Below are positions 27,551-55,371 of a DNA stretch of 64,000 nt, piece after piece. How positions within the stretch are numbered: the first letter of the stretch is position 1; each line of letters begins with the position of its first letter. The translations under genes and the position numbers were made by a program. The DNA comes from Octopus sinensis (lineage: Eukaryota), in assembly GCF_006345805.1 (NCBI RefSeq), contig NC_043006.1, forward strand, positions 63,984,001-64,048,000. Direction: 5' to 3'. The notes below the pieces were generated by a model that searched no databases, had not been told where the DNA came from, and worked only from the letters and a program-made list of their open reading frames with translations.

Positions 27551-27551
<1 letters not shown>

Positions 27552-27753
27552 AAGTTAATCCAAACATGAACAAAGGGAAAGCGCAACAACGCGAGGACGT
27601 GGAACAAGTATAGTGTTATTGGGCGCTCAGGAAAGGAAAGAAAGAAGGATCTAACGTTTCGAGCGGAGCTCTTCGTCAGAAACATAGAAAAAGGAAAGGT
27701 CTAAGGAAGGGAAGACGGAGAAAGAAAATCGCCAACAATATACACGCGGTCAC
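27551..27753 (-). mobile_element. Short non-autonomous element with hammerhead-like motif (Penelope-like?) in a (TA/CA)n tract
   Basis: Minus strand TTT-CTGACGA-A-GAGC-TCC-GCTC-GAAA-CGTT-AGAT at 27649-27683; flanked on both sides by microsatellite. Confidence 0.6.
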
Positions 27754-27771
27754 ACACACACACACACACAT

Positions 27772-27803
<32 letters not shown>

Positions 27804-29486
27804 CACAACGCTTAAAAAGAAAAAGCAAACCAATTTTAAACAACCAGTAAAGACACTCGTTCTTATCTAACACTTATTTATAAAAAAAAATTAGCCGTCA
27901 CCACCCCCAACTTACAAAATAGTAAAAATGCATTTTCGATCTTAGATATTTTTTTTTATCACAGGAAGATACATAACTCTCTTTCTCTCTCTCTCTCTGT
28001 CTCTCACACATACACAGCTGAGACCGAACTCTTGTTAGTTTAAATTCGGTCAGCAATAAAACTATGTTCACACATGTCTGCCGTATGCAGTGGTGAGGGT
28101 ATGTGTGTGTGTGTGTGTGCATATGTTACATTACTCTTACTCTAGTATGTAAGATACGATCGAGGTAGAAGGGGGTAAGGGTGTTCCCTCGATCTGCAGT
28201 AGCAGCAGTGACGACAAACAATAACGACTACAAAATAGAGGCTTCTGTCGACGAGCTTAAAACCTCGCTCATGTATATTAATGCACGCGCACATTATATG
28301 TACTTGACTAAAGCACGGACATAATTTTTTTTAAAAACTGCTACCATAGTAGTAATAATGATATTTTTGTTGCTTTTTTATTACCGGCCATAAAATCCCA
28401 AGTTGTTGGGAACAGTTACGAGTACAAAATACAAAAATTCATAATAGTCAAAGGAGTATTTGTCGATTAAATCGACTTGAGTATTTATTTATTACACACA
28501 CACACACACACACTTACAAAGAAAGTAAGAGAGAGAGAGGGGGGGGGCGCAACAGTAGTGAACAGCACAGCAAAGACTCGACTTTGATATATCTCCTCTT
28601 CGATATGACACTGTTGGTTTACATTGTTTCAATACAGTTAGAAAACAAACGAATTATTTAATAAAATAACTTCGTTATTAAGATGGTGTTTGAAACATTA
28701 AATTGAAATTTTGGAGGAAGATTTTTTAATTTAGACAATTTTAAAAGAGGAAGTTTGTATCGTGCAACCGACTGGTACAAATTCAATCTGGCACAAAGCC
28801 ACATTAAATCAATCTCAATACTTCACTGGTACTATAATTTCATCGACTTTGAAGGGGTGAAGAGTGAAGTTGACTTTGGTGAGATTTAAACCACTAGGCT
28901 GGACAGGAGATTCGACGCCGAAAAAATGAAAAGCAAAATTGAACTTAAACGCAGTGACAGAAGAAATATCACAACACATTTAGTCCGACCTCCTAATGAT
29001 AAACTTTTCTAACAGACAAACAAAATCCAGGGCAAATCTCAGTAAATTACTGGTATTTATTTTACAAACCCCAGGAAAGGTGACAAGTATAGAAAGATTT
29101 GATCTCCGAACACTAAGGGACGTAACTCAATAAAAGTCATTTGCATCAGTATTATTTTCTTTGGCGGCAGAAGAAAATTTTTTTTGTTCTCTACGGTCAG
29201 CTGGAGTGATTTGGAGGGGGGATGCGACTAACCAATTAGTTATAAATTCTATCATTTTTGTATGTAAAATGCCCTAACTCAACGCATCCGACTTCTTAAC
29301 CAAATACCTACATTGATTATTACAAGAATTGTCGTTATCAGACATTTCTATTCTTTAAATAATCGAAAATGACTTCGACCCGAAACTACGTTCAAAACTG
29401 GATCCGGTATCAAACTAGAGTCCAGAAAAAAAAAATCTTTTAACCGCCTATAATGGTTAGCGAACTAATCTCTTTCCCCAAATTAT

Positions 29487-29832
29487 TATTACCCCCCGCC
29501 TTCGCTAAGGCGTAGGTATTGTTTTCAGTCGTGTTTGTTTGTTTGTTTGCCTGTGGACAAGATATCTCAAGAACCGCTGGATAGATTCGGATGAAACTTT
29601 CATGGATGTTTGGCCTCGTGACTGGTACGAACTGATTAGATTTTAGGATCAATCCGGTACCAGACAGAGATTCTGGATTGAGAGCGGTTGGATTCATGTT
29701 TAGTATTCTCATTTGTGAGAGTAGTCGAGTTTTATTTCAGATATTCTCATTTTAAAAATCATTTCTGGCTAATCGTTGAGAGGACGTTGGTGTTGCCTTG
29801 GCGGAGGTTTGCGCTTTCTGATTGCTCTTGCT
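29487..29832 (+). mobile_element. Helentron-associated (HINE/DINE-1-like) non-autonomous element
   Basis: 5' TTACCCCCGCCTT sub-TIR, (GTTT)n tract, 3' CCTTGGCGGAGGT sub-TIR and terminal stem-loop; second copy at 50.7 kb. Confidence 0.65.
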
Positions 29833-30689
29833 ATTATTATTATTATCATTATTATTATTATTATTAAGGCGGCGAGGAATTGTTAGAACATATTGTAGAA
29901 TTACTTTCGACTGATTTCCGGTCTAACGAGGAAATGTATACAAAAAAAAAAACGCTCTTTAAGAATGATCCTAGGTGAAAGTGATAATTGTCCTTTTATG
30001 TTTACCTGTTTTCTCTCTCTGAGTTAGTTCAAATTCTGCTGACATCAACTTTGCTTATCTTTTTGGGGTCAATAAAATTAGTACCAGCCAAGAACTGGCG
30101 TCAATGTATTTCGACTTGCCCTCCTCCTTCCAAAATTAGAAAGAATTATTATTTATGTCCTTATCAAGTACATTAATTTAAAGCTCTCTCCGGTGAAGGT
30201 ATCTGCACAATATGTGGTACTAGAACCATGACACTGAAGCAAGCGCTAAGCAGACTAGTTTAACATTAAAACAAATTTTTTTATAGGGAACTCTGTTTTA
30301 AGAAGCTTGATATGAATGGAGGAATGGATCCAAAGCTAAATGTATCGAGATATTATATCTTTGTTTCTAATTCAGACTCGTATAAAGAAAATACAGTCTG
30401 TTATTGTTTTCAACTCAATCCACCATTTTAACTGAATAAATTCCTTTATGCCTTCGCCTGAAAGCTCCAAATGATTTACTTTCTTATCGAATACTTTAGT
30501 TCTTGATAGTAAACCTATCTTAACAAAAGCACCTTTCACTAAACAGAAAAAAAAGAAGATATCCAACACCGTCTGACGAGGGAATGTATACAGAAGATGC
30601 TTTTTATGAATGATCCTGGGTGAAAGTGATAGTTGTCCATTTATGTTTATCTGATCTCTCTCTCTCTCTCATTTTGAGATATGAAGACA

Positions 30690-30883
30690 AATTCTTCCTC
30701 TGCCAACCGACCGGCAGGAGATCTGAGAGTAGACCAAGAGCGAGATGGTTGGACAATATTTAGAGTTGTTCGCGCTTGGGAATCCAGCAGGAACGTGTAC
30801 TGAAGGTTCCCTCCGATAGGGGTCATACGGAGGAGATACCTGATCCTACTAGAAATAGAGGGCAGAAAAATGGATGGATGGAT
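30690..30883 (+). mobile_element. RTE LINE 3' end fragment
   Basis: TGRRSESRPRARWLDNI (GRPxxRW motif) followed by a (GGAT)n tail. Confidence 0.7.
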
Positions 30884-31611
30884 TTGGCGGAAAGGCGGTG
30901 GTCATAATCCTTTACTCCGTGACGAGTGGCAAGTAACTTTCCTCAAACTCGAGACCTTGTCTAAATGCTTGCAACAGACGGGAATCTAATAAAGGCACCG
31001 AAGGTGCAAGATGGTGCCGTTAAAACCGAGCAATGGATTAAATATACCAACCACACGGGCTATTTGAACTCAGAACTAAAAAATGGGAACGAATACTGGT
31101 AGACATCCGGTCCGACATTCTTACAACGCCACCAATCCAACACCACGAGTGTTAACCTTTCTCTTACCCCCAAGAGGATGAAAGGTTGGATTGAGCTCAG
31201 TAAGCAGATAGTGGAAACAATTACAGCGAGGCATTTCATTCGGCACTCAACAGATTGCAAATTTGCGGTCTTTTTCATAAAGGTGCTACGTAAAATAACT
31301 TTCGTATGGTCTAAATACAACCCAGCACAGTATTTAACTTGTATTGTTGTGAGCTCAACCCAATTACGTTAATCAAGAGTTTCTAATAACTGTCTGGGTT
31401 TTCTGTTTCCTCTTCGCTGCGAGAAATCGAGAGGTGGTTTCTAATACAGGCGCAAGACCAGAGATTGAAAGCCAATTGATATTGATCCCAGCACCAGATT
31501 GGCACTTAAATTTTTATATTTTACCTTATAAAAGCAAAAAGAAAACGCCACAAAATTCTACATTTTCTATTAAATGTCTTACTTCATCTAAGAGGATATA
31601 TATATATATCA

Positions 31612-31823
31612 CATGGTTGGCCAAAGTCAACCGACAGTTAATAAAAATTCCATAAATACTCAATTTTATTTAATCATTCCAATTATGAATGTTTGATTTA
31701 AAAATCACTATTTTTTTTTCAACATTTGTCTTTTTATTTGCGAAATCTCATAAAATAATTTCTTGTTTTAATTTTGGAATTAAATGCGGTTGGCCAGAAG
31801 TCAGGTGACTTTTGGCCAACCCT
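31612..31823. mobile_element. Tc1/mariner-type MITE
   Basis: Inverted ends CATGGTTGGCCAAAGTCAACCGAC / GTCAGGTGACTTTGGCCAACCCTG, AT-rich interior, in TA/TG repeats. Confidence 0.75.
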
Positions 31824-32166
31824 GTGTGTGTCTGTGTATACATATATATATATATATATATAATTAACCCACGGAATTCCAAACGGCCGTAGAGTTTGGT
31901 GCTCGAGTTACATCCCTTTACGCCCAAACGTTAAATCTATTGACTGATACTGAAAGTCGGTCACACCCAAAAAAACTCCCCCAACAGAATTAGCTAACTG
32001 TAACGCAGAAAAAAAATTCTTCCGCCGACTGTCAAAGAAATATAGCAAGTTGACTTCGTTGACTTGAATACTTAAATTTGACATAAGAAAAATACTTTTT
32101 CTTTTCTTTTTCTCGGAGTTACGGAATTGTAATGAATTACTTAAAAGTTACAGTAAAAGACTGGTA

Positions 32167-32414
32167 CAGACATACCTCAACTTACGTCGTTTCTTTTTTC
32201 TAAAGAAATAATTGGTAAAAAAATAAACCTCAACTTCAGTCGATTTATCAAATCTACGTCGGTCTCAGCAAGCATTTTTTTTTTTAAATAAGTATTTAAT
32301 AATCAAAATTACATGTGAAAATGTGTAAATAGAAAAATGATTTTTCGTGTTACGTCGTTTCTCGAGTTAAGTAACGATTTGGAGCTAATGACCGACTTTG
32401 TTGAGGCGTGCCTG
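32167..32414. mobile_element. Degenerate pogo/Tigger-like MITE
   Basis: TA-CAGACATACCTCAACTTACGTCG ... CGACTTTGTTGAGGCGTGCCTG imperfect TIRs resembling Tigger CAGGCATACCTC ends. Confidence 0.55.
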
Positions 32415-33039
32415 TTTTTATTTCATAAGATCCACAAGGGGATGGAGGGTGAGAGGGCAGAGAAAATCGATTCCCAACACAATTTGATCTCAGTAAAGAC
32501 CTGAATTCATTTCGTGTGACACATTAAGTATGCCATTCAACGTTTGTTTTTGTTTTTTATTTCCACCCCGACCCCAATCACACAGAATGCAACATCGATT
32601 GAGACGGGCCGGTAAGTTAGTACATGTAAGTTCCTATGCTGGAGCACAGCCTGCTAGAAATAACAAACAGATCTCCCTCAAATCGCACCCTAACTGTCAT
32701 TAAAAATGATGATAATAATAATAATAATGTTGCACAGTGTAAGTTCTCGAAACTCATGTCTCGAGAATATATATACGGAATAGTCACGACTAAAACGCCC
32801 TTAAAGTTTATACTGTGCACATTGTAGATGTTGTGCCACGCGCATCAACCAAAACAATAGGTTTATTAGCTCGCCTAGCTAGAAATAGCAGCCAAATCTC
32901 TTTCAGATCACATCCATCATTATGAAAGGGGAAAAAAAAGAGACATTGAATAAAGTAGTCCTGGATATGCAATGCCACAATGAAAGACAAGATAGTAGTC
33001 ATGGCTGTACTGTTTCAATCCAAAAATTATATATATATA

Positions 33040-33171
33040 TATATTAATCGAAGCATACACCATAATATATATCCATTACTACCGATCTTACCAATCGCTT
33101 TGGCGCTAGGAGAAGCGATTGGTAAGATTGGCAGTAATGGATATATAATACTATACACTTCGATTAATATA
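33040..33171. repeat. Long hairpin / palindromic MITE-like element
   Basis: Arms ATATTAATCGAAG...TCCATTACTACCGATCTTACCAATCGCTT and AAGCGATTGGTAAGATTGGCAGTAATGGA...CTTCGATTAATAT around a ~12-nt loop. Confidence 0.9.
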
Positions 33172-33679
33172 CACACACTATCGATAGATATACAAGTACA
33201 TTTTTCCTGACTTATGGACTCTTAGACAACTCTCTCTCTCTCACACACACACACACAAACACAAATGTATGTGTATACATTCACTCGGAGCTGAGCTGGG
33301 TGTGGGACAAAACATTGACTAATTTTTTGACAACACACATACACAGAATTATTAGTATAACCTATTTAGGTTATGCTAAATAGAACAAACATTTTATTTA
33401 TCTCTATCTTGTTTCGTTAAATTGTGTATGGGACGCAAAATTTAATGACTGCCAACTACAATGCCCTAAATGTGGTAATCGCTAATGAAGGTACAAAACT
33501 AGAAATTTGAGCTGATTGGAAAGAAGTTTCGATTGTACTGATCCAAATAACTGAATGGAACTATTTTATCGGCACTAGGAAAAGTGAATGGTAAAGTTAA
33601 CTCTGACAGGAAGTGAACTCAGATCGCACAAGGGCGTAACTAAATTACTACAAGGCACATCGATACTGAAAATTTAACA

Positions 33680-34530
33680 TAGATACAAAGCTTGCAATTT
33701 TGCGGGGAGAAATAAGTCGACCCCCCACTCCCCCAGTTATCAACTGGTACTTATTTCGGTGTCCCCGAAATACTGAAAGGCAAAGCTGACCTCGGCGGAA
33801 TTTGAAGTCTGAACGTAAAGGTGGGACGAAATGCCACTAAGCATTTTCTCCGCCGTGCTAACGATTCTTGTTTCTTTATTGCCCACAAGGGGCTTAACAC
33901 AGAGAGGACAAACAGGGACAGACAAACGGATTAAGTCGATTGCATCGACCCCAGTGAGTAACTGGTACTTAATTTGTCGACCCCGAAAGGATGAAAGGCA
34001 AAGTCGACCTCGGCGGAATTTGAACTCACAACGTAACGGCAGACGAAATACCGCTAAGCATTTCGCCCGGCGTGCTAACGTTTCTGCCAGCTCGCCACCA
34101 TAACAAGAACAATAATAACGATGATGATGATTTGAAATTTTTTCACAGGACCATCAATTTCAAGAGAAGAGGTGGGTCGATTACATCGACCCCAGTGATC
34201 AACTGGTACTTTTTATCGACCCCGAATGGACGAAAAGCAAAGTCGATTACAACAACCCCAGTACTTAACTGGTACTTTATTTTATCGATCCCCAAAACAA
34301 CGACAAAAAAACAAAAACAAATGTTTCTAATTAAGGCAAAAGACCAACACTTGTGAGGGGATGAGGTAAATCAATAACTTTGACTCTAGTACTTGATTGG
34401 TACTTTGTTATCGATCCCAGCCAGGGAGGAAATGAAAGACAAAGCTATCTTCAATGGAATTCGAACCCAGAACGTAAGGAGCCGGAAGAAATGCCGCAAA
34501 GCAATTGTTTCAGACGCTCTAACGATTCTG
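33680..34530 (-). mobile_element. Tandem/nested family B SINEs; young copy at ~33868-34098
   Basis: Reverse complement of the 10381 element, repeated head-to-tail. Confidence 0.85.
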
Positions 34531-37500
34531 CCACTAACACTGGATCTGATGTTAATAAATTTAATCTACATACAAAAAAATACCGAAGCTAACATTCATA
34601 TTACTTCGTAGCTGTTGTATGAAGTCTTCAAATTAACATCTACAACACATACACTAACAACTCTAGTGTGTTTATCTATTACAGCATTATCCATCATACG
34701 CCGAAAACAGGGTTTTGGGATCAATTTCTATCATAAAACACTGGTAGTACAAGCTAAACAACTGATTCTTTTCTCTAATTAAGCCATGGCTTTAACTACG
34801 GTTAGACTTCGGTTAAACAATAAAAACACAACAAAAAAAACGCAAGCTGAAAGACTAAACAATGCGATTGAGGTATGACGCTTCAAGACCTATTATGAGG
34901 GCAATATAAAGTAATATAAACAAATTTTAACAAAAAGCTAACAAATAAAGTAACTACAACCCCTAAATCTCTGACGATTTGGGTTCAAATTTAGATTGCA
35001 CCCATTAGGATAATGATGACTAGTATAATCAGTACAGACCACATATTCTGGAATGGAGCGTAGTTGCCTAAGTCCTACCCTAGTATATGAATGGTATTTT
35101 TAATTTTATCGGCCTGAGAAGAATCTAAAGCAAAGCAACACCGGTACTATTTGAATTCAGAGTGTAAAGAAACAACTAAATATAGCTAGGCAGGCGAACA
35201 TTTTAACGATGTCAACTTAACCAGCAGAAGACCACAGAAATAAGAGATCGGAGTAGCCGATTGCTTACACCGGCACAAAAGTTATAAGATCCTTGTGGAT
35301 TAAAACCAACATCAGCATATAATAGATAGGACAGGGGTCTATTTTACAAGTCCACAATAAACAGTAGACGTAGGGCTTTATATTTTTTTTTCTTTTCTCC
35401 TTCCACTACACAAACACTGAAACTTGAACTCCTGTGCTCCAGTGTTTGCCAACTATATATTATATATATAAATATATGGATCTGCAGATATGTGTTTGTG
35501 CGCGCGCACATACACACATGCTATTTCGATTTTACTATTGACAACCCCACGTGGCGTCAAGTAGAGAATTACAAACACAAATATTGATGCCCTGGATCCA
35601 AAACTACCAACGATACCCTCCACATAAACATAGGCGCGTAGACACACAGCTATGTAAATGTATGTGCAAGCGTATCTTTAAGTGAATGTGCGTGTGTGTG
35701 TGTTTATATATATATATATAAACGCGCTCGTTTATGTATACACACGCGATACAAAGAGACTTAAGTTAGTTTTTTTTTTTTCATAATAATAATAATTGAT
35801 TTCCACTCCTGTCCTCGATGGTATCATAAAGCCGAACATCGTGTATGTATCTCAATATAAATGAAATGTCGGTCGTTCAAAAAAGAAGAGTCCCTGTTCA
35901 AGTAGTATGTAAAAAAAAGAAAAAGGCCAGCCCCACTCCCGAAAAATAATCTATCAATATCTATTTATCCCTTTATATCCATGTATAATTACAAACATAG
36001 TTTATACATACATATATATATGTATATATATTCAAAGTGCATGGCGGGGTGAAGTTGTGCAACGAGAAAAAAATATATATATATATTCAGAAACAATACA
36101 TACCAAACAGACGACCATTTAAAAAGGCTACACTCTTCTTAGTCGCTATATAAACATATCTATACAAGGTGAATATGTGGTTGTAAGGGCTTCGCTTGAT
36201 TTGTAGTAAAAAGTAATATATTTATAAGTATTATTGTGTCAGGTCAAACTAGCATGCTTTATATCTTCTATAATATCATGAGTGGAGGGGTGATCCGGAA
36301 GTGACCTTCACGGTAAAGGAAGTTATTGCTAGCGACTGTTCTTGAAAAAATTTTCAGAAAGAAAACTTAATATAGGCAACGAATAAACAGAAGAAAACAA
36401 TTTTTTAATAGCATTGACTTCGCAAAAACATAATATTTATTTAGAATTATCGATAAAAAAGAAATCTTTAAAATAGATTAATAATGGACCTTTTTAACGA
36501 TTAGGAGGAAGTTACTTTGAAATATTTCAGGAGTAAATAAAACAGAAAAGCTTCGCAGCGAATAAGATGAAATAAAGAATTGGATGAAAATAGGTGAATG
36601 GTCGCAAGTTTGGCAGCTCCACATATCTTCGGATAAGTCCTGGGGAGATACGTTACAAATGTACTCTCTCCTATTTACTATTAGCTTTTCTTCAATTCAT
36701 TAATTCTATTTTATTTTGCACTCTAGCAATAATAATAATAGAAATAGTAATCGCTTCTTTTAAAGATCTTTATTAAATTGAGACAAAAAAAATTATAAAC
36801 TGAAAGCTTATGTTCATGTGCTTATTTTACCCATTTTGACAACAAATAAGAGTTTTTAATTAAGTTCAAATCCACCAATACTGAAGGGAGTGGGTAACTC
36901 AATGACATTAACCACAACACTTGATCGATAATGTATTTTATCGACCCCCAAAAGAGATGAAGTTTATCTCGGCGAAATTTGAACTCAGAATGTACGCTGT
37001 TTTAATAAAGATAAAATATGCCTCTTAATATCAAATCGTTACCAACCAACACAATTCAGTGGGGTGATCCATTGTATTATATTTCAAACGATTATATAAA
37101 GCTTTATTGATCAACAGAAATCCAGTCAGTCGACTTAATAATACTGACTCATTCACACAGACGTCGTCTTCTACTGCTACTACTATTACTATATGACCTC
37201 TTCATGGTCGCTCGACATGCTCAAAATAGTAACCATGTGTCTCCCTCGGATACAGAAAAAGATGAAACGGTTTGGCTTGGAACGCTTTCGATCACAGGTT
37301 TGTTTGCTCAGAGGCGACTTGGAGTGAACAAATACAAAGCAGCCAAATAATGAAGGCCAAGGCGAGAGCCTGTACGTGGTTACTTGACCTGCTAAAAACA
37401 GCAGCCAAACTTTCACTAAGACTACTTACTGTCAAGAGGGGGTAAAAAGTGACGTGCCTATTATATGTAAAAGTTGGTTTACTCTGTCAGAGCTGACAAT

Positions 37501-37609
37501 CTGTCAATAGTAGTCAGGCCTTTTACGGCAAAAATATGTGAAAAGGAGGGTTGGCTTGTTTTGGTTTGTAAAAAGCGTTGACTGTGATTGCAAAGATATT
37601 AGTAACTCT

Positions 37610-37860
37610 ACATATACACACACATTTACACATACATGCACGTATATTTATATACCTATGTATAATATTTGTACATTATATGTATGTATATATATATGTG
37701 TATGTATGTATATATATATATATAAAATATATGTGTATATATGTATAATATATACACGTATCTGCACAATATATATGTGTGTGTGTGTGTATTTGTATAA
37801 TATATATATATAAATGTGTGTGTGTGTATATATATATATACACGTATACGCGCGCGCTTC
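37610..37860. repeat. Compound (TA)/(TG) microsatellite
   Basis: Direct reading; source of spurious Y/I/H/T-rich ORFs. Confidence 0.95.
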
Positions 37861-39009
37861 CATCCATACACAAAAGACTCGTCTTAGTGCAACAAAAACA
37901 AGAAAACCTAACTCAAATTTACGACCTAGAAAGACCCAATAAACAAACACAATCACCCCCACAACCTACGTCTCTCGGCTGCTCCACTTCTACAAATAAA
38001 CTGGTAGACGACCTACTACTACTACTACTACAACTACACCACATTGAATGAATAAACACTCTTTGTATGGTGTAATTGTTGGGTATTGCCGTTGTTTAGC
38101 CCCAGGTCGGGCATGAGCTAGAGACCTACCAGCCATGTATACAATGAGTCCTTTCTCTAAAGAAGTCTATACGAATGATTTGATGGAAACGTGGCTGCTA
38201 TTTTTAGTAAGTAGAACGACAGTAGCATAAGAGGCTTTCTCTTTCGTAAAGATGGAGTAGTGTTGGCGGAGTTGCCAGGATTTCATGTTTGCTGTTATTT
38301 AGACTCAGTGCTGATCCATCAGAGATATATATCATGAAAAGCATTCGCTTGTGACCATCCTATTTCGCCCAAACACTACATTATCAAATAAATGCGTCCT
38401 TCCTTTATGTAGGCTGTAGGATATTATTTGACGGAGAATCGACTGCTATTTCTACAACATCAAGAGTGTGGAATTTAATGTTGCTGTTGTTAGCCACAGG
38501 TTAATCCCGAGAGAGCAGATTTAAAATTTCAAGGGTTTTAGCAATAACCGTCTCTCCATATATTTTTCTAGGCATAGAAACCACATCATTTAATGTGTCC
38601 CACATTTTTTTATTACTATTTTAGAACTAAAAGAACATAGTAGCCATTTCTAGCAAGTCGAGGCGGCACTCAGGAAACTCCTATTCTCGGGGGCGGTGGT
38701 GGTGGAGGGAATAGTAAGATTCGGCTCCATATTAGAAACCTTGTATCGTTTAAAATCGGGTCAGACCAACACGCTAACACATCTCCTTGACTAAATCTCA
38801 GACGCGCGCGCGCGAGTGCGTGCGTGCGTGCATTGAAAATTACGACTGAAACGAAAGTACTCAATACATAGTGTAGAAAATACTGTTCACTTAAATTGAA
38901 TTATTTTTCTCGCAATTCAAATTGCAAGAAACTGCTACTGTAACGAGTGTATATCACATACACACATACCATATATATATATAAAACATTTTAAAGGATC
39001 TTAAGGAGA

Positions 39010-39010
39010 T

Positions 39011-39049
<39 letters not shown>

Positions 39050-39295
39050 ATAAGTATATTTGTGTGTATATATATATATATATAAATCTCATGTATATGA
39101 TACATTATATATATATATATATATGTACGTGTATATATATATATGTACGTGTATATATACATATATGTACGTGTATATATACATATATATGTATATATAT
39201 ATATATATGTATGTGTATATATACATACATATATGTATATATATATGTATGTGTATATATATATGTATGTATGTGTGTATATATATATATATACA
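39010..39295. repeat. Compound (TA)/(TG) microsatellite
   Basis: Direct reading. Confidence 0.95.
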
Positions 39296-42181: not shown

Positions 42182-42259
<78 letters not shown>

Positions 42260-42793: not shown

Positions 42794-42797
<4 letters not shown>

Positions 42798-43831: not shown

Positions 43832-43869
<38 letters not shown>

Positions 43870-45052: not shown

Positions 45053-45430
45053 ATCTTTTACTTGTTTCAGTCATTTTACTGCGGCCATGCTAGGACATTA
45101 CTGAAGGATAATGGTCGAAAAAATTGACCCCCAGGACATTTTTTTTAAAGCCTAGACTTATTCTATCGTTCTCTTTTGCCGAACCGTTACGTTACAGGGA
45201 TGTAAACACACCAGCACCGGTTGTCAAGCGGTGGCAGGGAACAAACCAGTTATATACATGTATATACACGACGGGCTTCTTTCAGTTTCCGTCTATAAAA
45301 TCCACTCAAGGCTTTGGTTAGCCCAAAGCTATAGTAAAAGACACTTGCCGAATGTGCCACGCAGTGGGATTGAACCCACGACCAAGTGATTGGGAGGCAA
45401 ACTTCTTACCACAGAACCACAGCTGCACCT
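45053..45430 (-). mobile_element. SINE family A, full length
   Basis: All diagnostic blocks present. Confidence 0.9.
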
Positions 45431-47139
45431 ATTTTTTTCTGTGTGTGTGTGAGAGAGAGAGAGAGAAAGAGAGAGAGAGTACACACACACATTAGAGAGA
45501 AAGAGAGAGCGCAATACGAATAAAAATACCGGGTCATCAAAGGTTTAAGTTGCTTTGTACTCATTCAAGCCCTGTATCTCCACACATTGAGATAGGATAT
45601 ACGGACCGAGCGAGCGCGGAATATGAGGCCTTGGGCATGCTGGCATTTTACTCGTATTGCTTTACAAATTACGAACGATTACGTGTTTGTATCGAATGCA
45701 GTGTGTTTTTCTTAAATACTATTTATCAAAAATCATACACACAGACACACAAACACACCATCACCACCATCATCATCATTACCTAGTCACCAGTCTACAA
45801 CTGTCTATTCAAGCAAACCGTAGTAGCGTGTAATCTTCTGGTCGAATACTATACACCATGGAGACTAAACAGTAATCTCATCTTAAGCTGAGCAGCAGGC
45901 CTAGGATGTGTGTGTGTGTGTGTGTGTGTGTAGGCGACGGGGGAAAGAGAGAGAGAGAGAGAGAGGAAGAAAATTTGAAACTTATGTATGTGCCAAGCTT
46001 GTATGTTTGTGTGTAATTCGAGATCGGTGTGTATTGTGTTACACCCCAGGTCAGACATGAGTAGACTTCATGATCAAAAGCATTCCAACCATGGCCGGCC
46101 CATCATTCCCTCGAATTTTCAGTATATAGGTCTATGTTATTCAGTTTGTCCTGTCCCTTTACAAGGACGGTAGGGCGTAATGAGAGGCACATTCGGCAGT
46201 TAATTCTGGCAGAGCGAGTAACCAATTACTCTCCCTAGCATATGTGAAGAAGAAAGTACATTTCCTTCGTTTGACCTACATGCACACACACACACACACA
46301 CACATACGATCTTCCAAACTAAATCCAAATCACATACACATACGTATGTTTGTGTGCGTACATTTATTACAATCTGAATTTATACACACGAGTGAGCGCA
46401 GATGAGACAAACACATATACGATGAAATAAAGCCGAACTAATTCGTCACAAACTACAACAACTACTGCCGCTGATTCTACTACTACTACTACTGCTGCTG
46501 CTGCTACTACTACTACTACTACCACCACCAACAACAACACCACCACCACCAATGCTACTGCTGTTTCTGCTGACGGTTACTACGGAATCTGATAGTAAAT
46601 GTTAACTCCGCACACAACAACAATCGGAACCTAGAAAGAACCTCTTCTACGTGATCGCTCGATCGACATGCTAGATATAACAGCAAATTCTCCCTCAACT
46701 CCCACTACCATCTGGAAACAAGAAAGGAGATAATAGTACAATGTAACCCTAGACTGTCTTTGATCATAAAGGTTTAGCTCAATGAGGTTTGGCTTCGGAC
46801 TAAGCACATCACAGCCCCAACAACAAACAACACATAACTCGATCGATAACATTACCACCACATTAATTACTAGCAAAACCATAACCACTAACACTACTAC
46901 CGCTGCTATAACAGCAACTTATAGGACAATGTGGGGGTTTAAATATACAAAAGACGGAATTGCTACGACCGGGACGCGTTTCGGTCGGGATGACACATTT
47001 GGCACAGCTGGTTAGACACTGACAATTTTCCACGACTGACTGGACATTCAATCTGTTTTGGTGACAGTAACGTTTTGGCACACACATGCGCGCGCGCGTG
47101 CAAACATACACATGCACACACAGTAATATATACATACAG

Positions 47140-47375
47140 AAGGGCAGCGAGCTGACAGAATCTTTAGCACGCCGGGCGAAATGCTTAGCGGTATTTCCTC
47201 TGCCGCTACGTTCTGAGTTCAAATTCCGCCGAGGTCGACTTTGCCTTTCATCCTTTCGGGGTCGATTAAATAAGTACCAGTTACGCACTGGGATCGATGT
47301 AATCGACTTAATCCCTTTGTCTGACCTTATTTGTCCCTTCTGTGTTTAGCCACCCACCCGTGGGCAATAAAGAAA
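47140..47375 (+). mobile_element. SINE family B, full length
   Basis: High similarity to 10381-10598. Confidence 0.9.
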
Positions 47376-47439
47376 TAACTATATACAAACAAATAGAAAG
47401 TGAGAGGGAAACATTACACATACATACAAACGTAACTAG

Positions 47440-47705
47440 CATTCCATGGGTTACGACGATAAGAGTTCTACTTGAGCCGACCAAACGATACAGCTTGCTC
47501 GTGGAATTAACGTGAAAGTGGCTGAACATTCCACAGACACGCGTACACTTAACATAGTTCTCGGGGAGATTCAGCGTGACACAGAATGTGATAAGGCTGG
47601 CCCTTTCAAATACAGGTACAATTCATTTTTGCCAGCTGGGTTGACTACAGCAACGTGAAATAAAGTGTCTTGCTCAAGCAAGGACACATCGTGCTGCTAG
47701 GAACC
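47440..47705 (-). mobile_element. SINE related to family C with a Nin-domain-like central region
   Basis: Minus strand CTTGAGCAAGACACTTTATTTCACGTTGC...GTGTCTGTGGAATGTTCAGCCACTTTCACGTTAATTCCACGAGC. Confidence 0.65.
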
Positions 47706-47904
47706 AAAATATGGCTCTGCGAGGAAGAATGAGTTAAGCTAATGCTAATTTCATGATTGTAATATCACTATACATGTACAACATATTATTGGTTATTGTA
47801 ATATAGACATTATCCTATCTAACCTATAAAAAAAACCCATATATATATTTATTTATTTACCACGTGAACTACGATGAAAAAATATGAGATAGATATGGTA
47901 TATA

Positions 47905-47983
47905 TTTTTTTTGTGCAGGGGTTCCTTGAGACATGTAATTTATTTTAGGGGTTAAGCAAGGGTAAAAAGGTTGAGAAACACTG
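47905..47983. mobile_element. hAT (Charlie-like) MITE end; related ends near 8490-8507 and 62140-62210
   Basis: GGTTGAGAAACACTG is the reverse complement of a CAGTGTTTCTCAACC terminal repeat. Confidence 0.5.
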
Positions 47984-50151
47984 GTCGACGGTGTTCAAAT
48001 ATATATCACTGGCCAGTGTGCGCTATTTCTCTAAGATCTTAGTTGAAAGGAGAGGAAGGATGTGAAAAAGGGGAAACTGAGAGTATTTAATGACTATTAA
48101 ACACAGAATTATTTCAGGAAACTGGCTATCAAACAACCAGAGTTAAAAAAATGTGTAGGGAGAGGGAGATGGGCTGGAGGGAAAGAAGAGGCGAGGGGAG
48201 AGAAAAATTGTGTGCCTGTAGATGTGTATACGGTGGATTATGAAAGGAAGAGTAGAAATTACAGAGAAGGACAAAGAGGAGGGAGTCAGACACTTGAAAA
48301 TATTTTGCTCGTGAAGGTGGGTCTCTTGATGACCACTTCAACCATCACACACACACACACTCTTTCCATCATCATCATTACCACCACCACCACCACCACC
48401 ATTATTAAACGCAAACATTCTTTCGAACACCAACATCAACATTCACGTGTACACGTTCCACCACATCACATTCACGCTGGAAAACACATTACATCGGCGT
48501 CTTCCCCACTCTGTCACTACACACACACACACACGCACGCATATACACACTTAACGATGAAACTATTAAATGGCGGTAAAGATTATAGGATTCATGTGAT
48601 ATATTTGTTTTCCCTTCTCAGAAGCAAAAGGACCTTCACCTCAAATTTTAGGGACCGACTTTCAATGTAAGCAGTATATGCTTACACTTGTGTATAATAA
48701 GATCTGTACGTATGTTAAAGCACGATAATAATTGTTTGAAAGAGAAAGAAAGGAAAAGAGCGAGAGAAAGAGAAAATGAATTTGATATGGAAGGAGAGAG
48801 TAATGGAAATGAAAAAGAAACAAGTAAAAGACTTAATAACAATAAACGAGAAGAGATCATTGCTGAACGATCTCGCCTGAAACCTGAGCCAGTTGAAAAC
48901 TAATAATTCGTATTACAGTGTGATTGATATTCATAATGATAGCATACAACATTTCTCTTCTGCTACACTGCAAATCGAAAGATAGCGTGATTCAACGATG
49001 GAACGTCTGTCTATGCGATTGCTACATCTGCTTGGATATTATTTAAAAAAAAAAGAAAAAAAAAGGCGATTGGACATTGTAGTCCTGTATAGAGTATACC
49101 CAAATAAAAAGCTGAAATGGTCATGACAGGAACGCCTTTGTGTATAAGTCTATTTGATCAAGACTTATCTCTCGTGTACCGTTCTAGTGTAGCCATAATA
49201 AGTACTTTGTAATATGCTACATTACACTTAAACACGGCATTCTTACACTACTTTGTTCATCTACTATTACATTTCACCTTTTCAGCGTCGATAAAATAAG
49301 TACCAGTTGAGTACTAGGGTCGATGCAATCAACTAGCGCCCCCACACCCGCCAGCAAATTTCGGGCCTTGTGTCAATAGTAGAAAGAATTATTTATATGC
49401 CACACTACAGCATAATTTTAAGCAAAATTACACACCATCACATTTACACTAAATGCACATTAAACTATGTTGCACCAGACTACACATACACTGGGAAAAG
49501 CGTGGTCCAACCGGTTAGGCAATTAGACCTCGATCGTAAGGTTTGTGTGTTCGATTCCGATCGGGAAAGAACGTCGTGTACTTGGGCAGGTACTTCACGC
49601 TGGTTCAGTTCGCTCAGCTGACAGAAATGAAAGCGCCCGGTCGATGTCGCGACTACCAGTGGACTATGTTTTCTTGTATTTTTTTAATACACTAAAATGC
49701 ACTATTTACATTACGTTACTCTTGTACTAAACACTACATTGCACTTCAATTAGCGTAATACGAATACACTGTATTACATTTCATAGTCTACTACAAAATA
49801 CTTTTATATTTCACTAATGCTACAGCATTAGTGTAATACACTACATATAAATTACAGTTCACATTTACACGTTTACTATACGCGATCGTTTGATCTGTAT
49901 GTGTGCGTCTGTGCACGCGAGCATATACACAGGTACACACACACACAAACAGACTGAGCTATAACAGCAAACTAGCTGATACGAACCAACCACGAAGCCA
50001 TTGATGTGGTCACGCCACATGCTGGAGAAGTCAAATTTACCAAAAGTTTTTTTTTTTTTAAAGACACCTTGGATAATGTGATCCAAGGTACACTATGTCC
50101 GGAATAGAATAGAAAGCGAGATAATCACACTCTTCCTTCTCTAAATATCAT

Positions 50152-50155
<4 letters not shown>

Positions 50156-50198
<43 letters not shown>

Positions 50199-50358
50199 GG
50201 GGGAAGATCGAGAGAGGAGAGAGAGAGAGAGTCAGAGAGAGAGAGGAGAAGGAGAGAGAGAGAGAGGGGAGAGAGAGAGAAGAAGAGAGAGAGAGAGTGA
50301 GAGAGAGAGTCAGAGAGGAGAGGAGAGAGAGAGGAGGAGAGGAGAGAGAGAGAGAGAG
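50156..50358. repeat. Polypurine (GA)n/GGAGA tract
   Basis: Direct reading. Confidence 0.95.
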
Positions 50359-50710
50359 TCAGTTTCGCAGTGGAACGTCTTGAAAATATTCCCTCCTGCA
50401 ACAAAGTTTTCTGCAAAAGTGACATCGGTGTTTGAAGAATTGAAGATTGTTTGGCTTATTGGTGCTGGTCAGGCTTCAGTTAACATCGTCGTTCAACCAA
50501 GAGACCATAGCTTGTTGTTGCTAGATAGATAGAAAATGACGCTTAGATCACAAGAGAATAAGGTTAAGTATCTATGCAGACAATGGTTACAAACTTCGTT
50601 CTCTGCATCAAAACGCAGCACAGAATCTAAACAAAAACAATTCTAATACATCGAATTATATTTATGTGTCCAAACGATTTATTACGCAGCAAGCCTCCAT
50701 TATATATCGT

Positions 50711-51010
50711 TATTACCTCTACCTTAGCGAAGGCGGAGATATTGTTTGTTTGTTTGGCTGTGGACAAGATATCTCAAGGACCGCTGGATGGATTCGGATG
50801 AAACTTTCAGGGATGTTTGACCTCGTAACTGATTACATTTTGGGACCGATCCGACACCAGACAAGGATTCTGGATTATTTTTCCCCGTTTTTTTTTTATG
50901 CTTAATTTTTGAGAGCGGTCGGGTTCATTTTTAGTATTTTCGTTTATTTCAGATATTCTCATCTTAAAATTCATCTCTGGCTAATCGTTGAGAGGACGTT
51001 GGTGTCGCCT
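50711..51010 (+). mobile_element. Second, 3'-truncated copy of the Helentron-like element
   Basis: Shares CTGTGGACAAGATATCTCAAG...GATTCGGATGAAACTTTCA...GCTAATCGTTGAGAGGACGTTGGTG with 29487-29832. Confidence 0.65.
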
Positions 51011-51459
51011 TTTTCTTTTTATCTTTTACTTGTTTCAGCCATTGGACTGTAGCTACCTTGAAGGGATTTTGTCAAATAAATAGCTCCCAGCACTTGTTTT
51101 CTTTTTAAAGTCTACTGCTTATTCTATTGTCTCTTTAAACCGAACCGCTAGTTTATGGAGCCTTGAACAAACCCACACCAGCTGTTAAGCGGGGTGGTGG
51201 ACAAACACATAAACGCACACGCATATATGACTGGCTCCCACGCACATTTTCTGTCTATTAAGTCCACCCACATGATACTGGTCGGCCCGGGGTTATAGTA
51301 GAAGGTGCTGCACAATGGGACTAAACCCGAAACCACAAGGTTGCAAATCGAGCTTCTTTATTTACGATAGTATATTGAGATTATAGAAATTTCGTTGCTA
51401 TCTCTAGCGGGTTGAGCGACCACGTAGGTTCATGAATGCCACTGTTTCGTCAAGGTACT

Positions 51460-51783
51460 GGCACTGTCCACGAGAAGGTTCAGTCCTAGAAGTGTGGTGG
51501 CTTGTATGTTTCAATGATCCCGAGAGCCATGCAAACCGAGCGTAAACTCCTGGCTGGGCCTCTCATGCTGGACAGGTCAAATGATAGACGCAACACTAAT
51601 ATGGATCACGTTTTCCTAGAGGTGAAAATGGGTTTGCGTAGGGCCAACACCTCTACATGGAAACAAGCGACGTTAGAAGCATTGATGACAATTCAAAACC
51701 AAAAGACAGCTCAGAGTGAAACCTGTTGAGAAATGTCGCCGATAGCCCCTGCTCCTTAGGGAGCGATGAGCTTAAGTAAATAA
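51460..51783 (+). mobile_element. Internally deleted RTE derivative (5'UTR joined to 3' tail)
   Basis: GGCTTGTATGTTTCAATGATCCCGAGAGCCATGC...CTCTCATGCTGGACAGGTC resembles RTE/Expander 5'UTRs; ends GCCCCTGCTCCTTAGGGAGCGATGAGCTTAAGTAA like RTE 3' ends. Confidence 0.5.
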
Positions 51784-52142
51784 CCGGTACTATATTCTAC
51801 TGACCCCAGAACGATGTAAGTTTAAATGGACATAGTTAAGATTCGAACTCAGAATGTAAAGAAATATTACTAATTTGGTCCGACGCTCTACCGACTCTGC
51901 CGTCGATCATTCTAGTGTCAATGATATCCTGTATTGTTCCAGCCGGCCCACATGCCTTAGTTTGTTAAGTAACAAGAGGACTGATAAGACATGAGACATA
52001 TGAAGAGTGACACTATGTTGTATTTTTTCAGAGATTGATTGGAGTGAAATGATTGGACACTGTGATCTGGCATGGCTCACTGGAGACTGAGTATGTTTTG
52101 GCAACAGTACTTTTTGTACTAAAAGCAAACATACGTAGAAAT

Positions 52143-52184
<42 letters not shown>

Positions 52185-52199
52185 GAGATTTTACACATA

Positions 52200-52378
52200 C
52201 CAAAGGAAGAAAGAGTAAAAGAGTACAGCAGGGTTCGTCACCAACCCCACCAAGGGCCTCGTGGAAGTATAGGTGTTTTCGCTCAATAAACACTCACAAC
52301 GCCCAGTCTGGGAATCGAAACCGCGATCCTACGACCGCGAGTCCGCTGCCCTAACCACTAGGCCATTGTGCCTCCACA
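52200..52378 (-). mobile_element. tRNA(Arg/Ala)-like SINE, a further family
   Basis: Minus strand GTGGAGGCACAATGGCCTAGTGGTTAGGGCAGCGGACTCGCGGTCGTAGGATCGCGGTTTCGATTCCC head with A and B boxes. Confidence 0.8.
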
Positions 52379-53154
52379 CTAACTTACCGATATGTATAAA
52401 AAGTAAATACATACTCCACACATATAAATATACACGAAAGTACGTATTATCCAAAATACATAACATCAGGATGTTTGAGTAAGAGTATATGTGTGAGAGG
52501 CAGTGTGGTGAAGAGGCGCTGTATAGCAACACGAATACCTACAAAATCGATACATCACCTCAACCCGAACGTACATTCCTTTTCCAATCAGTAAGCACCC
52601 CACTGACAGTATCGATTGGGCGCCGCTCATTCCGAGAGCTGAGAGAATTTACCATGTACAGGACGCCAGCAAGTATGTCAGGAACGTTGCTACTGCAGCA
52701 ATAACAACAACAGCACTACTTGCTCACAATGGAAGCTTATATGGTGGGTGTAGATCTTATATATATATATTATATACATACATACATGCATGCATGCATA
52801 CATACATATATGTATGTAAGCATAAGTATACACACAAACATTACATATTAATTTGATACAAAAAGAAAACTTTCGGTTTTTTGGTATTTTAAACTTTGAT
52901 GCTTATTTTCGAACAAACATATATTTAACTATGTTCCTCGATTGAAATGTTGATTTCGGTTTATTGATTTATGCTAACAGTTTTGTATTCAGTGTTCACT
53001 CTTTATTTAATCTTCTTGTTTTTTGTTTTTATTTTAATTTTCGGTTGTCAAATTAAAGAAAGAAGAAATAGTAAATTCGAGCGATTTTATCGTAAGAGTT
53101 CAAAATGGAACATAAAGTAGAGAAAGCTGTTCGCAATATTTACCAAGCAAGCCA

Positions 53155-53705
53155 TAAGGTGACGAGCTGGCAGAATCGTTAGTACGCCGGCCGAAATGCT
53201 TAGCGGCATTTCGTCCGTCTTTACGTTCTGAGTTCAAATTCTGCCGAGGCCGACTTTGCCTTTCAACCTTTTTGGGGTTGATACAATAAGCATCAACTGA
53301 GCATCGGGCTCGTCTCCTACCCCAGAATTGTTGGCCTTGTGCCAAAAAAATGAAACCAATATTCAACAAGCGAGCATAAGGCGGCGAGCTGGCAGAATTG
53401 TTAGCACGCCGGGCAAAATACTGAGCGGCATTTCGTCCGTCTTTACGTTCTGAGTTCAAATCCGCAGCAGTCGACTTTGGCTTTTATTCTCTCAGGGTCG
53501 ATTAAAACGTACCAGTTGAAGACTGAGGTCGATTTAAACGACTTAACCTTTTCCCGAAAATGGCGGCCTTGTGCCAAAATTTGAAACCAGTATTCCCGAA
53601 GCAAAAGGCCGTAAATTAGCAGAATATTTAACACGCCGGACAAAATGTTCATCAGCTTTTCGTCCATCTTTATGATTTAGGTTCAAATCCTGGCGAGGGT
53701 AACTT
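53155..53705 (+). mobile_element. Three head-to-tail family B SINEs
   Basis: Heads at ~53156, ~53378 and ~53605. Confidence 0.85.
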
Positions 53706-54440
53706 CTGTAGATTTGGCTAATGATTATTCGGTTAATAAAATTTATTCTGAACTTAGACACATTGCTTCAAAGTTAATGATGAAAAAAAGAGCTATGATT
53801 CAAGAAAGTAAAATGTAAGCAAGATATTTAATCACTGAGAGTATACAACTAGGCGAGAGGTACTCACACGCAATGATACAGGTGCGGGCGCGCGCATAGA
53901 CACAGACAAAGAAGAGTTATCTCCTCCTTTCCTTGCGAGTCGCCAACAATTACTACTAAATTTTTTCTTTTTCAATAAGACGGAAATTTTAGTTGATTAA
54001 GAATTCTTTTTCCATGCCATTTAGCACATTACTTTTTAATTTATTCTTCTGAGTTCATGCCAGTGAGCAACTTCAGTTTTTCCCTCTACACATAAAAAAT
54101 ATTATGCATGTTATTTATTAGTGTGTAAAAATCTTTCTAAGTCATTTTCTATATGTAAATACTATTGCCATCCGTTTCAAACAGGTTTCAGCAGACTGTT
54201 ATTCTAATAAGGTACAATAAGACAGAATTATGGCCGAAGTTTCCCCTCCCTCTTGCCTCAGGGTGTAGTTAGAGTGTGTGTTCCGCCCAGAGCAGTCCTT
54301 GAGCTTTTCGCCCTCCCTAAGAATCTCAAGCCTTATACACATAGGATTTCACAGTAGCCCCCAAAAGTGCCGTCCTTATAAAAACGTCGCCTGATGTGGA
54401 CTGCACATTCTCGTCCCCGCCTCTTGATACACTACTGCTT

Positions 54441-54849
54441 TACTCTTTTCTCTTTTACTTGTTTCAGTCATTTGACTGCGGCCATGCTGGAGCACCGCCT
54501 TAGTCGTGCAAATCGACCCCAGGACTTATTCTTTGGAAGCCTAGTACTTATTCTATCGGTGTCTTTTGATGAACCGTTAAGTTACGAGGACGTAAACACA
54601 CTAGCATCGGTTGTCAAGCGATGTTGGGGGGGACAAAAACAGACATACAAACACATACGCGCACACACACACACACACATATATATGACGGGCTTCTTTC
54701 AGTTTCCGTCTACCAAATCCACTCTCAAGGCTTTGGTCGGCCCGAGGCTATAGTTGAAGACACTTGCCCAAATTAACACGCAGTGGGACTGAACCCGGAA
54801 CCATATGGTTGGTAAGCTAGCTACTTACCACACAGCCACTCCTGCGCCT
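54441..54849 (-). mobile_element. SINE family A, young full-length copy
   Basis: Least diverged family A copy; internal (CA)n/(TA)n. Confidence 0.93.
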
Positions 54850-55048
54850 TTCCTTTAATTTTGTAAAATTTACTTTAATTTTCATAAAATTATCTTTCCT
54901 GTTCCTGTCCATTACACACACACATACATTTGCAAGACCATAAGATTTAAAGAATGATGAACAAACCAAAATGCTTCCCATTACAACCTTGCTACCAAGC
55001 GGGTAAAGAGAAAAATCATATATGCATACAATATGTGTGCATTATACA

Positions 55049-55101
<53 letters not shown>

Positions 55102-55145
55102 GTATAGGGAGAGTTTATATATATATGTATAGAGATATATATATA

Positions 55146-55366
55146 TGTATAGGGAGAGTTTACGAAAAAGAAAACAAAAGACGAAGACAGGTGGTATACA
55201 AAACAAACAGATGTATTAGTATAACGCCAGAATAGAAAAAGTCTTTTACGTTTCGGGCCTACGCTCTTCTACAGAAAGGACACAGAAAGAAAAAAAAACA
55301 AGGAGAGAAAAAAATGTGTGTAATGGCCAACGATCTATCATGGCGATATATATATATATATCGCCA

Positions 55367-55371
<5 letters not shown>
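55146..55371 (-). mobile_element. Short non-autonomous element with variant hammerhead-like motif in a (TA)n tract
   Basis: Minus strand GTCCTTT-CTGTAGA-A-GAGC-GTAG-GCCC-GAAA-CGTA-AAAGAC at 55241-55281; same layout as the 27.6 kb element; duplicated and inverted termini. Confidence 0.55.

What the first reader, a model, noticed from the sequence alone, without database searches (positions are those of the whole stretch)
27551..55371. Three distinct microsatellite-embedded mini-elements each carry a minimal hammerhead motif, all on the minus strand
Seen: ~200-bp non-coding inserts at ~27.55, ~41.97 and ~55.15 kb, each bracketed by (TA)n/(CA)n. Each has CUG-core, stem II, GAAA, a very short stem III and NUH. 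Established: Penelope-like elements and retrozymes carry such minimal hammerheads, whose palindromic stem III allows dimeric folding. Inference: these are several families of non-autonomous, ribozyme-bearing retroelements that favour TA repeats in this genome. The 27.6 and 55.2 kb motifs share an ACGT palindrome and could pair as heterodimers. If MSL1 has a more distal first exon, all three lie in sense within its pre-mRNA.
Basis: partly seen in the sequence, partly recalled or inferred. Interest (0 to 1): 0.75.

Follow-up and report, generated by a model that had tools for sequence, protein, structure and literature searches.

The report
Truncated Penelope retroelement ends with hammerheads
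The three hammerhead (self-cutting RNA) motifs are real, but they are the cut-short tail ends of three abundant protein-coding Penelope-like jumping genes lying, likely inert, in one huge intron of an octopus gene; this is a known arrangement, and the one oddity is a family-wide change of a normally fixed core letter that is predicted to weaken cutting.

Summary
The motifs are real: 2 strict and 3 relaxed minimal-hammerhead hits, all on the minus strand, against 0.03 and 0.23 per shuffle. The reading 'non-autonomous mini-elements' fails. [quoted passage not shown] They are 5'-truncated 3' ends of Penelope-like elements: two Neptune-type sister families (27.6 and 55.2 kb) and one Nematis-like family (42 kb; clades judged by eye). 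All three lie in sense in a ~188-kb MSL1 intron, where 7 of 9 such ends are sense (p about 0.18). A heterodimer is not supported. One detail stands out: the 55-kb lineage has U at core position 6 in 13,318 exact motif matches against 140 with A, and many copies of the 27-kb lineage carry U4C. Cleavage is untested. This scan has already noted both the element type and the A6U core on other DNA, including this genome.

The parts
27553..27754 (-). F1: 5'-truncated 3' end of a Neptune-type Penelope-like element, between (TA)n/(TG)n tracts
   Evidence: 41 matches among 40 scored of 2002 candidates, 91-95% for the full-length ones; joined to RT and GIY-YIG in L194 and to GIY-YIG in L196 and L181
27649..27683 (-). 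F1 minimal type I hammerhead: canonical core CUGACGA, extra A after A9, 4-bp stem II, ACGU palindrome, predicted cut after 27653, weak 4-bp stem I
41712..42113 (-). F2: 5'-truncated 3' end of a second Penelope-like clade (Nematis-like by linker spacing), interrupted by an expanded internal (TA)n/(CA)n tract
   Evidence: joined to RT and EN in L185-L188
42023..42066 (-). F2 minimal hammerhead: core CUGAAGA, 6-bp stem II, near-palindromic AGAUUU, predicted cut after 42029; this copy lacks the family's extra G after A9
41821..41958 (.). Microsatellite expansion inside F2 (other copies have a short TA tract here), not an element boundary
55152..55345 (-). F3: 5'-truncated 3' end of a Neptune-type element, sister family of F1
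   Evidence: 43 matches among 40 scored of 2079 candidates; joined to RT and GIY-YIG in L183, L184 and, for a sister subfamily, L336
55243..55278 (-). F3 hammerhead variant: core CUGUAGA (A6U, lineage-wide), stem II with a private mismatch at 55256, ACGU palindrome, predicted cut after 55247
55362..55370 (+). Short inverted copy of the F3 5' junction, separated from it by (TA)n
   Evidence: read from the sequence; resembles the inverted 5'-truncated copy described for PLE insertions (PMC8557442, Fig. 2 legend)
55107..55116 (-). 10-nt duplicate of the F3 3' terminus, 45 nt further on in the TA tract
   Evidence: period-45 row
8902..64000 (-). Part of the large intron of the host MSL1-like (PEHE-domain) gene; the upstream coding exon lies about 133 kb past the window end
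   Evidence: spliced contigs give exons 8740-8901, 7313-7581 and others; upstream exon at G000:C10:64181454 onwards with a GT donor; the junction across this intron is inferred from protein homology

Best explanation
The three inserts are 5'-truncated 3' ends of three families of protein-coding Penelope-like retrotransposons, each carrying the element's minimal hammerhead, and these particular copies are likely inert passengers in an MSL1 intron. Shown: longer copies continue into RT and C-terminal GIY-YIG coding sequence; 3' ends are fixed and mostly abut (TA)n; 5' ends are ragged; inverted and tandem copies occur. Inferred: the element's endonuclease nicks TA-rich DNA, its RT copies the RNA from the 3' end and usually stops within about 100 nt beyond the motif, which leaves these short pieces. 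In the parent element the motif would cut only as a dimer formed between neighbouring terminal repeats, freeing unit-length RNA (the Cervera and de la Pena model). Single copies 14-28 kb apart would not be expected to cut. In the F3 lineage the A6U core likely makes cutting slower still, yet the lineage kept spreading and the rest of the motif stayed fixed, so the fold likely matters more than fast chemistry.
For: High copy number (2002, 2485 and 2079 first-look candidates; exact motif counts 9,290, 257 and 13,318). Physical linkage to RT/EN within single loci for all three families. Pfam RVT_1 passes its cut-off for L336 (32.9 bits); GIY-YIG hits lie below the cut-off (E 3.5e-4 to 1.3e-3). 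In 60 motif-picked F3 loci the 5' extent was <=60 nt in 26, 61-100 in 19, 101-300 in 10 and >300 in 5. An inverted second copy is present in 8 of 30 F2 loci. 3' ends abut TA-type repeats in 34 of 43 (F1) and 57 of 77 (F3) cases against 4,236 of 94,784 background positions. The motifs carry the traits listed for metazoan PLE minimal hammerheads: extra nucleotide after A9, G10.1-C11.1, palindromic 15.2-16.2 (PMC4209133). That paper found no cleavage by a single motif and low cleavage by dimers. The MSL1 intron is spliced in at least the downstream part, and transcript contigs extend about 2.3 kb 5' of exon 8901.
Against: No copy with an uninterrupted ORF was found among those I read; the most complete (L336) has frameshifts. 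The GIY-YIG Pfam hits are below threshold, and the F2 endonuclease got no Pfam hit. 5' ends cluster modestly 57-82 nt upstream of the core, and one locus holds three tandem F3 units (L077), so some short units may have re-mobilised on their own. Clade names rest on comparison by eye with a published alignment, not on a tree. Cleavage and target choice were not tested.
Confidence: 0.88

Rival explanations
1. The ~200-nt units are non-autonomous retrozyme-like elements that are transcribed, cut to unit length, circularised and re-inserted by a PLE protein.
For: Modest clustering of 5' ends 57-82 nt upstream of the core. Three tandem F3 units in L077 and two in L075. A 2026 preprint derives animal retrozymes from PLE terminal repeats (10.64898/2026.07.22.740005, parts 1-2 of 5 read).
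Against: Continuous spread of 5' ends up to the ORF. Short and long copies share the same sequence and motif. The window copies are single, not tandem. The motifs are minimal, whereas retrozymes are described with canonical hammerheads in tandem repeats (PMC7229834 passages).
Confidence: 0.08
2. The sense-strand motifs act on the MSL1 pre-mRNA, for example as a 27.6/55.2 kb heterodimer that cuts the intron co-transcriptionally.
For: All three lie in sense within the MSL1 intron, and F1 and F3 share the ACGU palindrome.
Against: Over the whole intron 7 of 9 such ends are sense (two-sided binomial p about 0.18, computed by hand). The ACGU duplex is worth -1.7 kcal/mol, and the co-fold of the two window motifs did not form the dimeric hammerhead. 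The F3 copy has A6U plus a stem II mismatch. The copies are 6-15% diverged from their closest relatives like ordinary dead copies.
Confidence: 0.03
3. In the F1/F3 lineage the hammerhead no longer cuts at all. It is kept as a structural or protein-binding signal at the RNA 3' end, so core letters that matter only for chemistry can drift (A6U, U4C, G at position 17).
For: U6 in 13,318 against 140 exact matches. U4C in 68 of the first 100 listed F1 matches (my count). G at position 17 in several F1 copies. A young U6 subfamily has 92-95 of 95 identical 3' flank positions between copies.
Against: The other core positions stay fixed between F3 subfamilies (0 of 10 core columns and 1 of 35 motif columns differ, against 32 of 135 flank columns). 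Natural A6C and U4C variants keep low but real activity (PMC3088659). This rival concerns the parent elements and is compatible with the main reading of what the inserts are.
Confidence: 0.35

Closest known systems
Minimal hammerheads of metazoan Penelope-like elements (Cervera and de la Pena 2014, PMC4209133; parts 1-2 of 4 read, one of three supplements not searchable)
   Same: Type I motif, almost no helix III, palindromic 15.2-16.2, extra nucleotide after A9, G10.1-C11.1, 4-5 bp helix I, mostly found as single motifs from truncated PLEs.
   Different: Stem II is 4 bp (F1, F3) or 6 bp (F2) rather than the 7-8 bp of the schistosome families. The F3 lineage has A6U and much of F1 has U4C; the parts I read describe U3-A8 as a core variant, not these. 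'Octopus' has 0 hits in the two supplements searched.
Neptune clade of EN+ PLEs (e.g. Neptune1_Ap, Neptune1_Nv in the supplement alignments of Craig et al. 2021, PMC8557442)
   Same: F1 and F3: DKG motif (L336), RT blocks that match Neptune1_Ap closely by eye, CX4CxxC linker with the long spacer before the GIY-YIG domain, CCHH finger, microsatellite-associated insertion.
   Different: Long low-complexity 3' UTRs (about 1.4 kb CA-rich in F1, about 1 kb pyrimidine-rich in F3) and non-canonical hammerhead cores. No tree was built.
Nematis clade of EN+ PLEs (same source)
   Same: F2: CX4CxxC linker with a short spacer before the GIY-YIG domain, CCHH finger present.
   Different: DKS in place of DKG in close relatives (P0003, P0004); only 29% identity over 56 aa to the F3 RT. 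Assignment is tentative.
Non-LTR retrozymes of animals (Cervera and de la Pena 2020, PMC7229834, passages; Li et al. 2026 preprint, parts 1-2 of 5)
   Same: Type I hammerhead in a 200-300 nt non-coding unit related to PLE ends.
   Different: Retrozymes are tandem, non-coding and described with canonical hammerheads; these units are dispersed and continuous with a coding element.

Membership tests
EN+ Penelope-like element | PLE-type RT in the same element as the 3' end | tested here: met
   RT blocks upstream of each family's 3' end in single loci; RVT_1 32.9 bits for L336, 25.4 bits (below cut-off) for F2 L185
EN+ Penelope-like element | C-terminal GIY-YIG endonuclease with CCHH finger | tested here: met
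   Motifs read directly in F1, F2 and F3 translations; Pfam GIY-YIG below cut-off for F1 and F3 and absent for F2
EN+ Penelope-like element | Tandem or inverted terminal repeats (pseudo-LTRs), 5' truncation | tested here: met
   Inverted second copy in 8 of 30 F2 loci, tandem F3 units in L075 and L077; ragged 5' ends in 60 F3 loci
EN+ Penelope-like element | Single intact ORF in an active copy | tested here: inconclusive
   All copies read are interrupted; L336 is near full length with frameshifts. No genome-wide search for an intact copy was made.
EN+ Penelope-like element | Target-site duplication | not testable with these tools
   Junctions lie in microsatellites and no empty site was available
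Neptune clade (F1, F3) | CX2-5CxxC linker with long spacer; RT similar to Neptune references | tested here: met
   Comparison by eye with supplement alignments
Neptune clade (F1, F3) | Monophyly with Neptune in an RT tree | not tested
   Reference proteins were not available as tool sequences
Nematis clade (F2) | Short linker finger plus CCHH; RT grouping with Nematis | tested here: inconclusive
   Linker spacing fits by eye; no tree; 23 homologues found, none with a clade name
Hydra clade (F2) | CCHH absent, CxCX5C linker, DKT motif | tested here: not met
   F2 and relatives have CCHH, CX4CxxC and DKS against the description in PMC8557442 section 11
PLE minimal hammerhead | Core CUGANGA and GAAA | tested here: met
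   Met for the window copies of F1 and F2. See the next row for F3.
PLE minimal hammerhead | Core A6 in the F3 family | tested here: not met
   U6 in 58 of 62 copies with a letter there; 13,318 against 140 genome-wide
PLE minimal hammerhead | Extra nucleotide after A9, G10.1-C11.1 pair, palindromic stem III | tested here: met
   Family majorities; the window's F2 copy has lost the extra nucleotide
PLE minimal hammerhead | Covariation in the stems | tested here: inconclusive
   Stem II is invariant within the F1/F3 and F2 lineages while its loop and N7 vary; one two-sided change at the first stem I pair between F2 and a sister family, read by eye
PLE minimal hammerhead | Self-cleavage as a dimer | not testable with these tools
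   Needs an in vitro assay
Non-LTR retrozyme | Non-coding tandem units with canonical hammerhead, independent of an ORF | tested here: not met
   Units are dispersed, minimal and continuous with RT/EN sequence

The most novel reading that the evidence does not exclude
The most prolific Neptune lineages in this octopus spread with non-canonical hammerhead cores: A6U in more than 13,000 exact motif copies across several subfamilies, including a very young one, and U4C in roughly two thirds of another 9,000, while the rest of the motif stays fixed. Either these are naturally tuned slow ribozymes or PLEs need the hammerhead fold rather than its chemistry. Standard CUGANGA searches miss the whole class.
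Probability: 0.35. Interest if true: 0.5.

Novelty: new member of a known kind. Interest (0 to 1): 0.27.

Why it matters
As given, the finding is an ordinary case of a pairing published in 2014: truncated Penelope-like ends carrying minimal hammerheads. It corrects the idea of separate mini-elements and offers no sign of host-gene regulation. The part worth keeping is the natural series of core variants (A6, U6, C4) in sister families of known success. What PLE hammerheads do is still described as unclear (PMC8557442), and these variants allow a direct comparison of cleavage rate with transposition success. They also suggest that descriptor-based hammerhead counts in such genomes are too low.

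Tried and rejected
Rfam scan: no hammerhead family among 107 matches at E<=10; nearly all are microsatellite-driven miRNA hits. Paper search 'hammerhead' + 'octopus' was swamped by shark papers (30 of 51 listed). 'hammerhead' + 'A6U' + 'core' listed only a twister paper, and a five-term search gave 9 papers already known to me; these are my only searches for A6U in print. Lunse et al. 2016, the largest survey of PLE hammerhead variants, was not held, so A6U may be described there. One of the three supplements of PMC4209133 could not be searched. The RNA junction between the far MSL1 exon and exon 8901 was not observed directly; it rests on protein homology and a GT donor. No run was on record as RNA; those laid show spliced joints, but contigs cannot show cleavage ends. 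Minimum-energy folds do not return the active hammerhead for monomers or dimers, as expected for such short helices, so they are weak evidence either way. Chance origin of the motifs was rejected. Hydra membership for F2 was rejected on motifs. One search stopped after F1 on a script error and was rerun for F2 and F3. The 'unbiased' sets drop copies picked by similarity to the window copy or by motif pattern and matches under 100-110 model positions, but still hold the window copies, one similarity-picked copy (L090) and two near-duplicate F2 pairs.
Full report
Observation. All three motifs are present on the minus strand. A descriptor for minimal type I hammerheads finds two with the strict core (C3 at 27679 and 42061) against a mean of 0.03 in 60 shuffles. 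With a relaxed core it finds three (adding 55274) against 0.23. Rfam lists no hammerhead. The host is an octopus: an exon in the window is 100% identical over 89 aa to a PEHE-domain protein that its source names as Octopus vulgaris.

Each insert is a repeat. DNA searches of G000 gave 2002, 2485 and 2079 first-look candidates, of which 40 were scored each; full-length matches were mostly 85-95% identical. Exact counts of 26-29 nt motif patterns are 9,290 (F1), 257 (F2) and 13,318 (F3), with 0 for the reversed controls. These are lower bounds on copy number. The F1 and F3 3' ends are fixed and are followed by a TA-type repeat in 34 of 43 and 57 of 77 cases, against 4.5% of background positions.

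The inserts are truncated coding elements. I walked upstream from copies that extend beyond the window copies. F3 reaches a GIY-YIG endonuclease and an RT in L183 and L184. F2 does so in L185-L188. F1 does so after a CA-rich UTR of about 1.4 kb, with RT, endonuclease and 3' end in one locus (L194) and endonuclease plus 3' end in L196 and L181. Pfam RVT_1 passes its cut-off for L336; the GIY-YIG hits are below cut-off and the F2 endonuclease has no Pfam hit. In 60 F3 loci picked only by the motif, the 5' extent is spread from 1 to over 1,000 nt: 26 at <=60, 19 at 61-100, 10 at 101-300 and 5 above 300. Eight of 30 F2 loci hold an inverted second copy, and L075 and L077 hold tandem F3 units. These are the structures described for PLE insertions (PMC8557442: abstract, sections 3 and 11, passages and parts of the supplement read). 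No uninterrupted ORF was seen in the copies I read.

Clades. F1 and F3 are sisters: their RTs are 71% identical over 66 aa, and their 3' ends align. By eye they match Neptune1_Ap and Neptune1_Nv in the published alignments. F2 is distant (29% over 56 aa for its relative P0003), has CCHH and a short linker, and so is not Hydra; it is tentatively Nematis-like. No tree was built. Penelope-like elements are already catalogued in Octopus vulgaris (PMC13282606, passages; 'ribozyme' has 0 hits there).

The hammerheads. Family majorities show the published traits of PLE minimal hammerheads (PMC4209133, parts 1-2 of 4): an extra nucleotide after A9, G10.1-C11.1, a palindromic stem III and a 4-5 bp stem I. 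In copies not picked by the motif (56 F1, 44 F2, 64 F3), non-CpG motif columns are slightly better conserved than flanks: 0.92 against 0.90 (F1, no test run), 0.92 against 0.90 (F2, p=0.04) and 0.96 against 0.90 (F3, p=0.002). Stem II does not covary within the lineages; it is constant while its loop and N7 change. That paper found no cleavage by a single motif and low cleavage by dimers.

Core variants. F3 carries U at position 6: 58 of 62 copies with a letter there, and 13,318 exact matches against 140 with A genome-wide. N7 is A, U, C or G in different subfamilies. Three clusters built on flanks alone (5, 46 and 5 copies) differ at 0 of 10 core columns and 1 of 35 motif columns, against 32 of 135 flank columns. 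One U6 subfamily is young: 92-95 of 95 3' flank positions are identical among five copies, and one of them (L336) is near full length. In the F1 lineage, 68 of the first 100 listed matches have U4C (my count), although the window copy is canonical. Perreault et al. report a natural A6C variant with kobs below 0.1 per minute and a viroid U4C variant with reduced activity (PMC3088659, section 8 and passages). I did not find A6U in print in two searches or in the supplements searched, but Lunse et al. 2016 was not available. Earlier notes of this scan report the same A6U family in this genome and A6U in shark elements; I tested the former, not the latter.

Host gene. Spliced contigs define minus-strand exons at 8740-8901, 7313-7581 and below, and one contig has 2,304 nt 5' of 8901 that lie outside window 1-20000. 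The matching coding exon is in a 771-aa open frame about 133 kb past the window end, with a GT donor that would restore the junction seen in homologue P0002. A predicted O. vulgaris model starts about 11 kb past the window end instead. Either way the three inserts are intronic and in sense. Across the ~188-kb intron there are 9 ends of these families, 7 sense and 2 antisense (p about 0.18), so the shared strand is not significant. A heterodimer would rest on a 4-bp duplex of -1.7 kcal/mol between sites 27.6 kb apart, one with A6U and a broken stem II pair; co-folding did not produce it.

Mechanism. Shown: identity as PLE 3' ends, fixed 3' and ragged 5' ends, TA association, intronic position, lineage-wide core variants. 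From established knowledge of PLEs: nicking by the GIY-YIG domain and target-primed reverse transcription; dimer-dependent, slow cleavage of minimal hammerheads. Inferred: early termination of reverse transcription made these inserts; they are inert; the parent's motif processes tandem transcripts, slowly in the U6 and C4 lineages.

Verdict. These are new members of a known kind, with a modest and testable twist in the core variants. Interest 0.27.

Noticed in passing
G000 genome-wide, F1 motif; L034, L052, L083, L202: About two thirds of exact F1-type motifs have U4C (68 of the first 100 of 9,290 listed), and some F1 copies have G at position 17, so non-canonical cores dominate both Neptune sister lineages.
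   Followed up: partly
L336 (G000:C1:163000-170500): Near full-length young Neptune element with the U6 hammerhead; the ORF is broken by frameshifts but its long pieces have no stops, which may reflect assembly indels.
   Followed up: partly
G000:C10:63992902-64181453 (MSL1 intron): The MSL1-like gene has an intron of about 188 kb; a predicted O. vulgaris protein (P0001) lacks the large upstream exon and starts at a small exon about 11 kb past the window end, so that model is probably incomplete.
   Followed up: partly
window 3853-4327: Contigs join 4327 to 7313 and 2183 to 3852, while homologous proteins use only 4269-4331 and 3853-3924, implying a further short intron between them.
   Followed up: no
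L006, L053, L262, L332: A sister family of F2 keeps the same stem II but a different stem I and palindrome; three of four copies have C at position 9, and L006 is an inverted pair.
   Followed up: partly
L135:~2353, L161:~581: A further minimal-hammerhead family with a longer stem II region and canonical core appears by chance in two fetched loci.
   Followed up: no
window 27649-27683 and 55243-55278: Predicted monomer folds pair the 5' core strand with the stem III palindrome, giving a rod-like inactive hairpin; in F3 the U6 takes part in that pairing. Energies are weak and this is only a lead.
   Followed up: partly
window about 4.7-5.3, 9.9-10.6, 13.5 and 17.8 kb: Very high contig depth in all four runs laid, typical of abundant interspersed repeats; not identified.
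   Followed up: no
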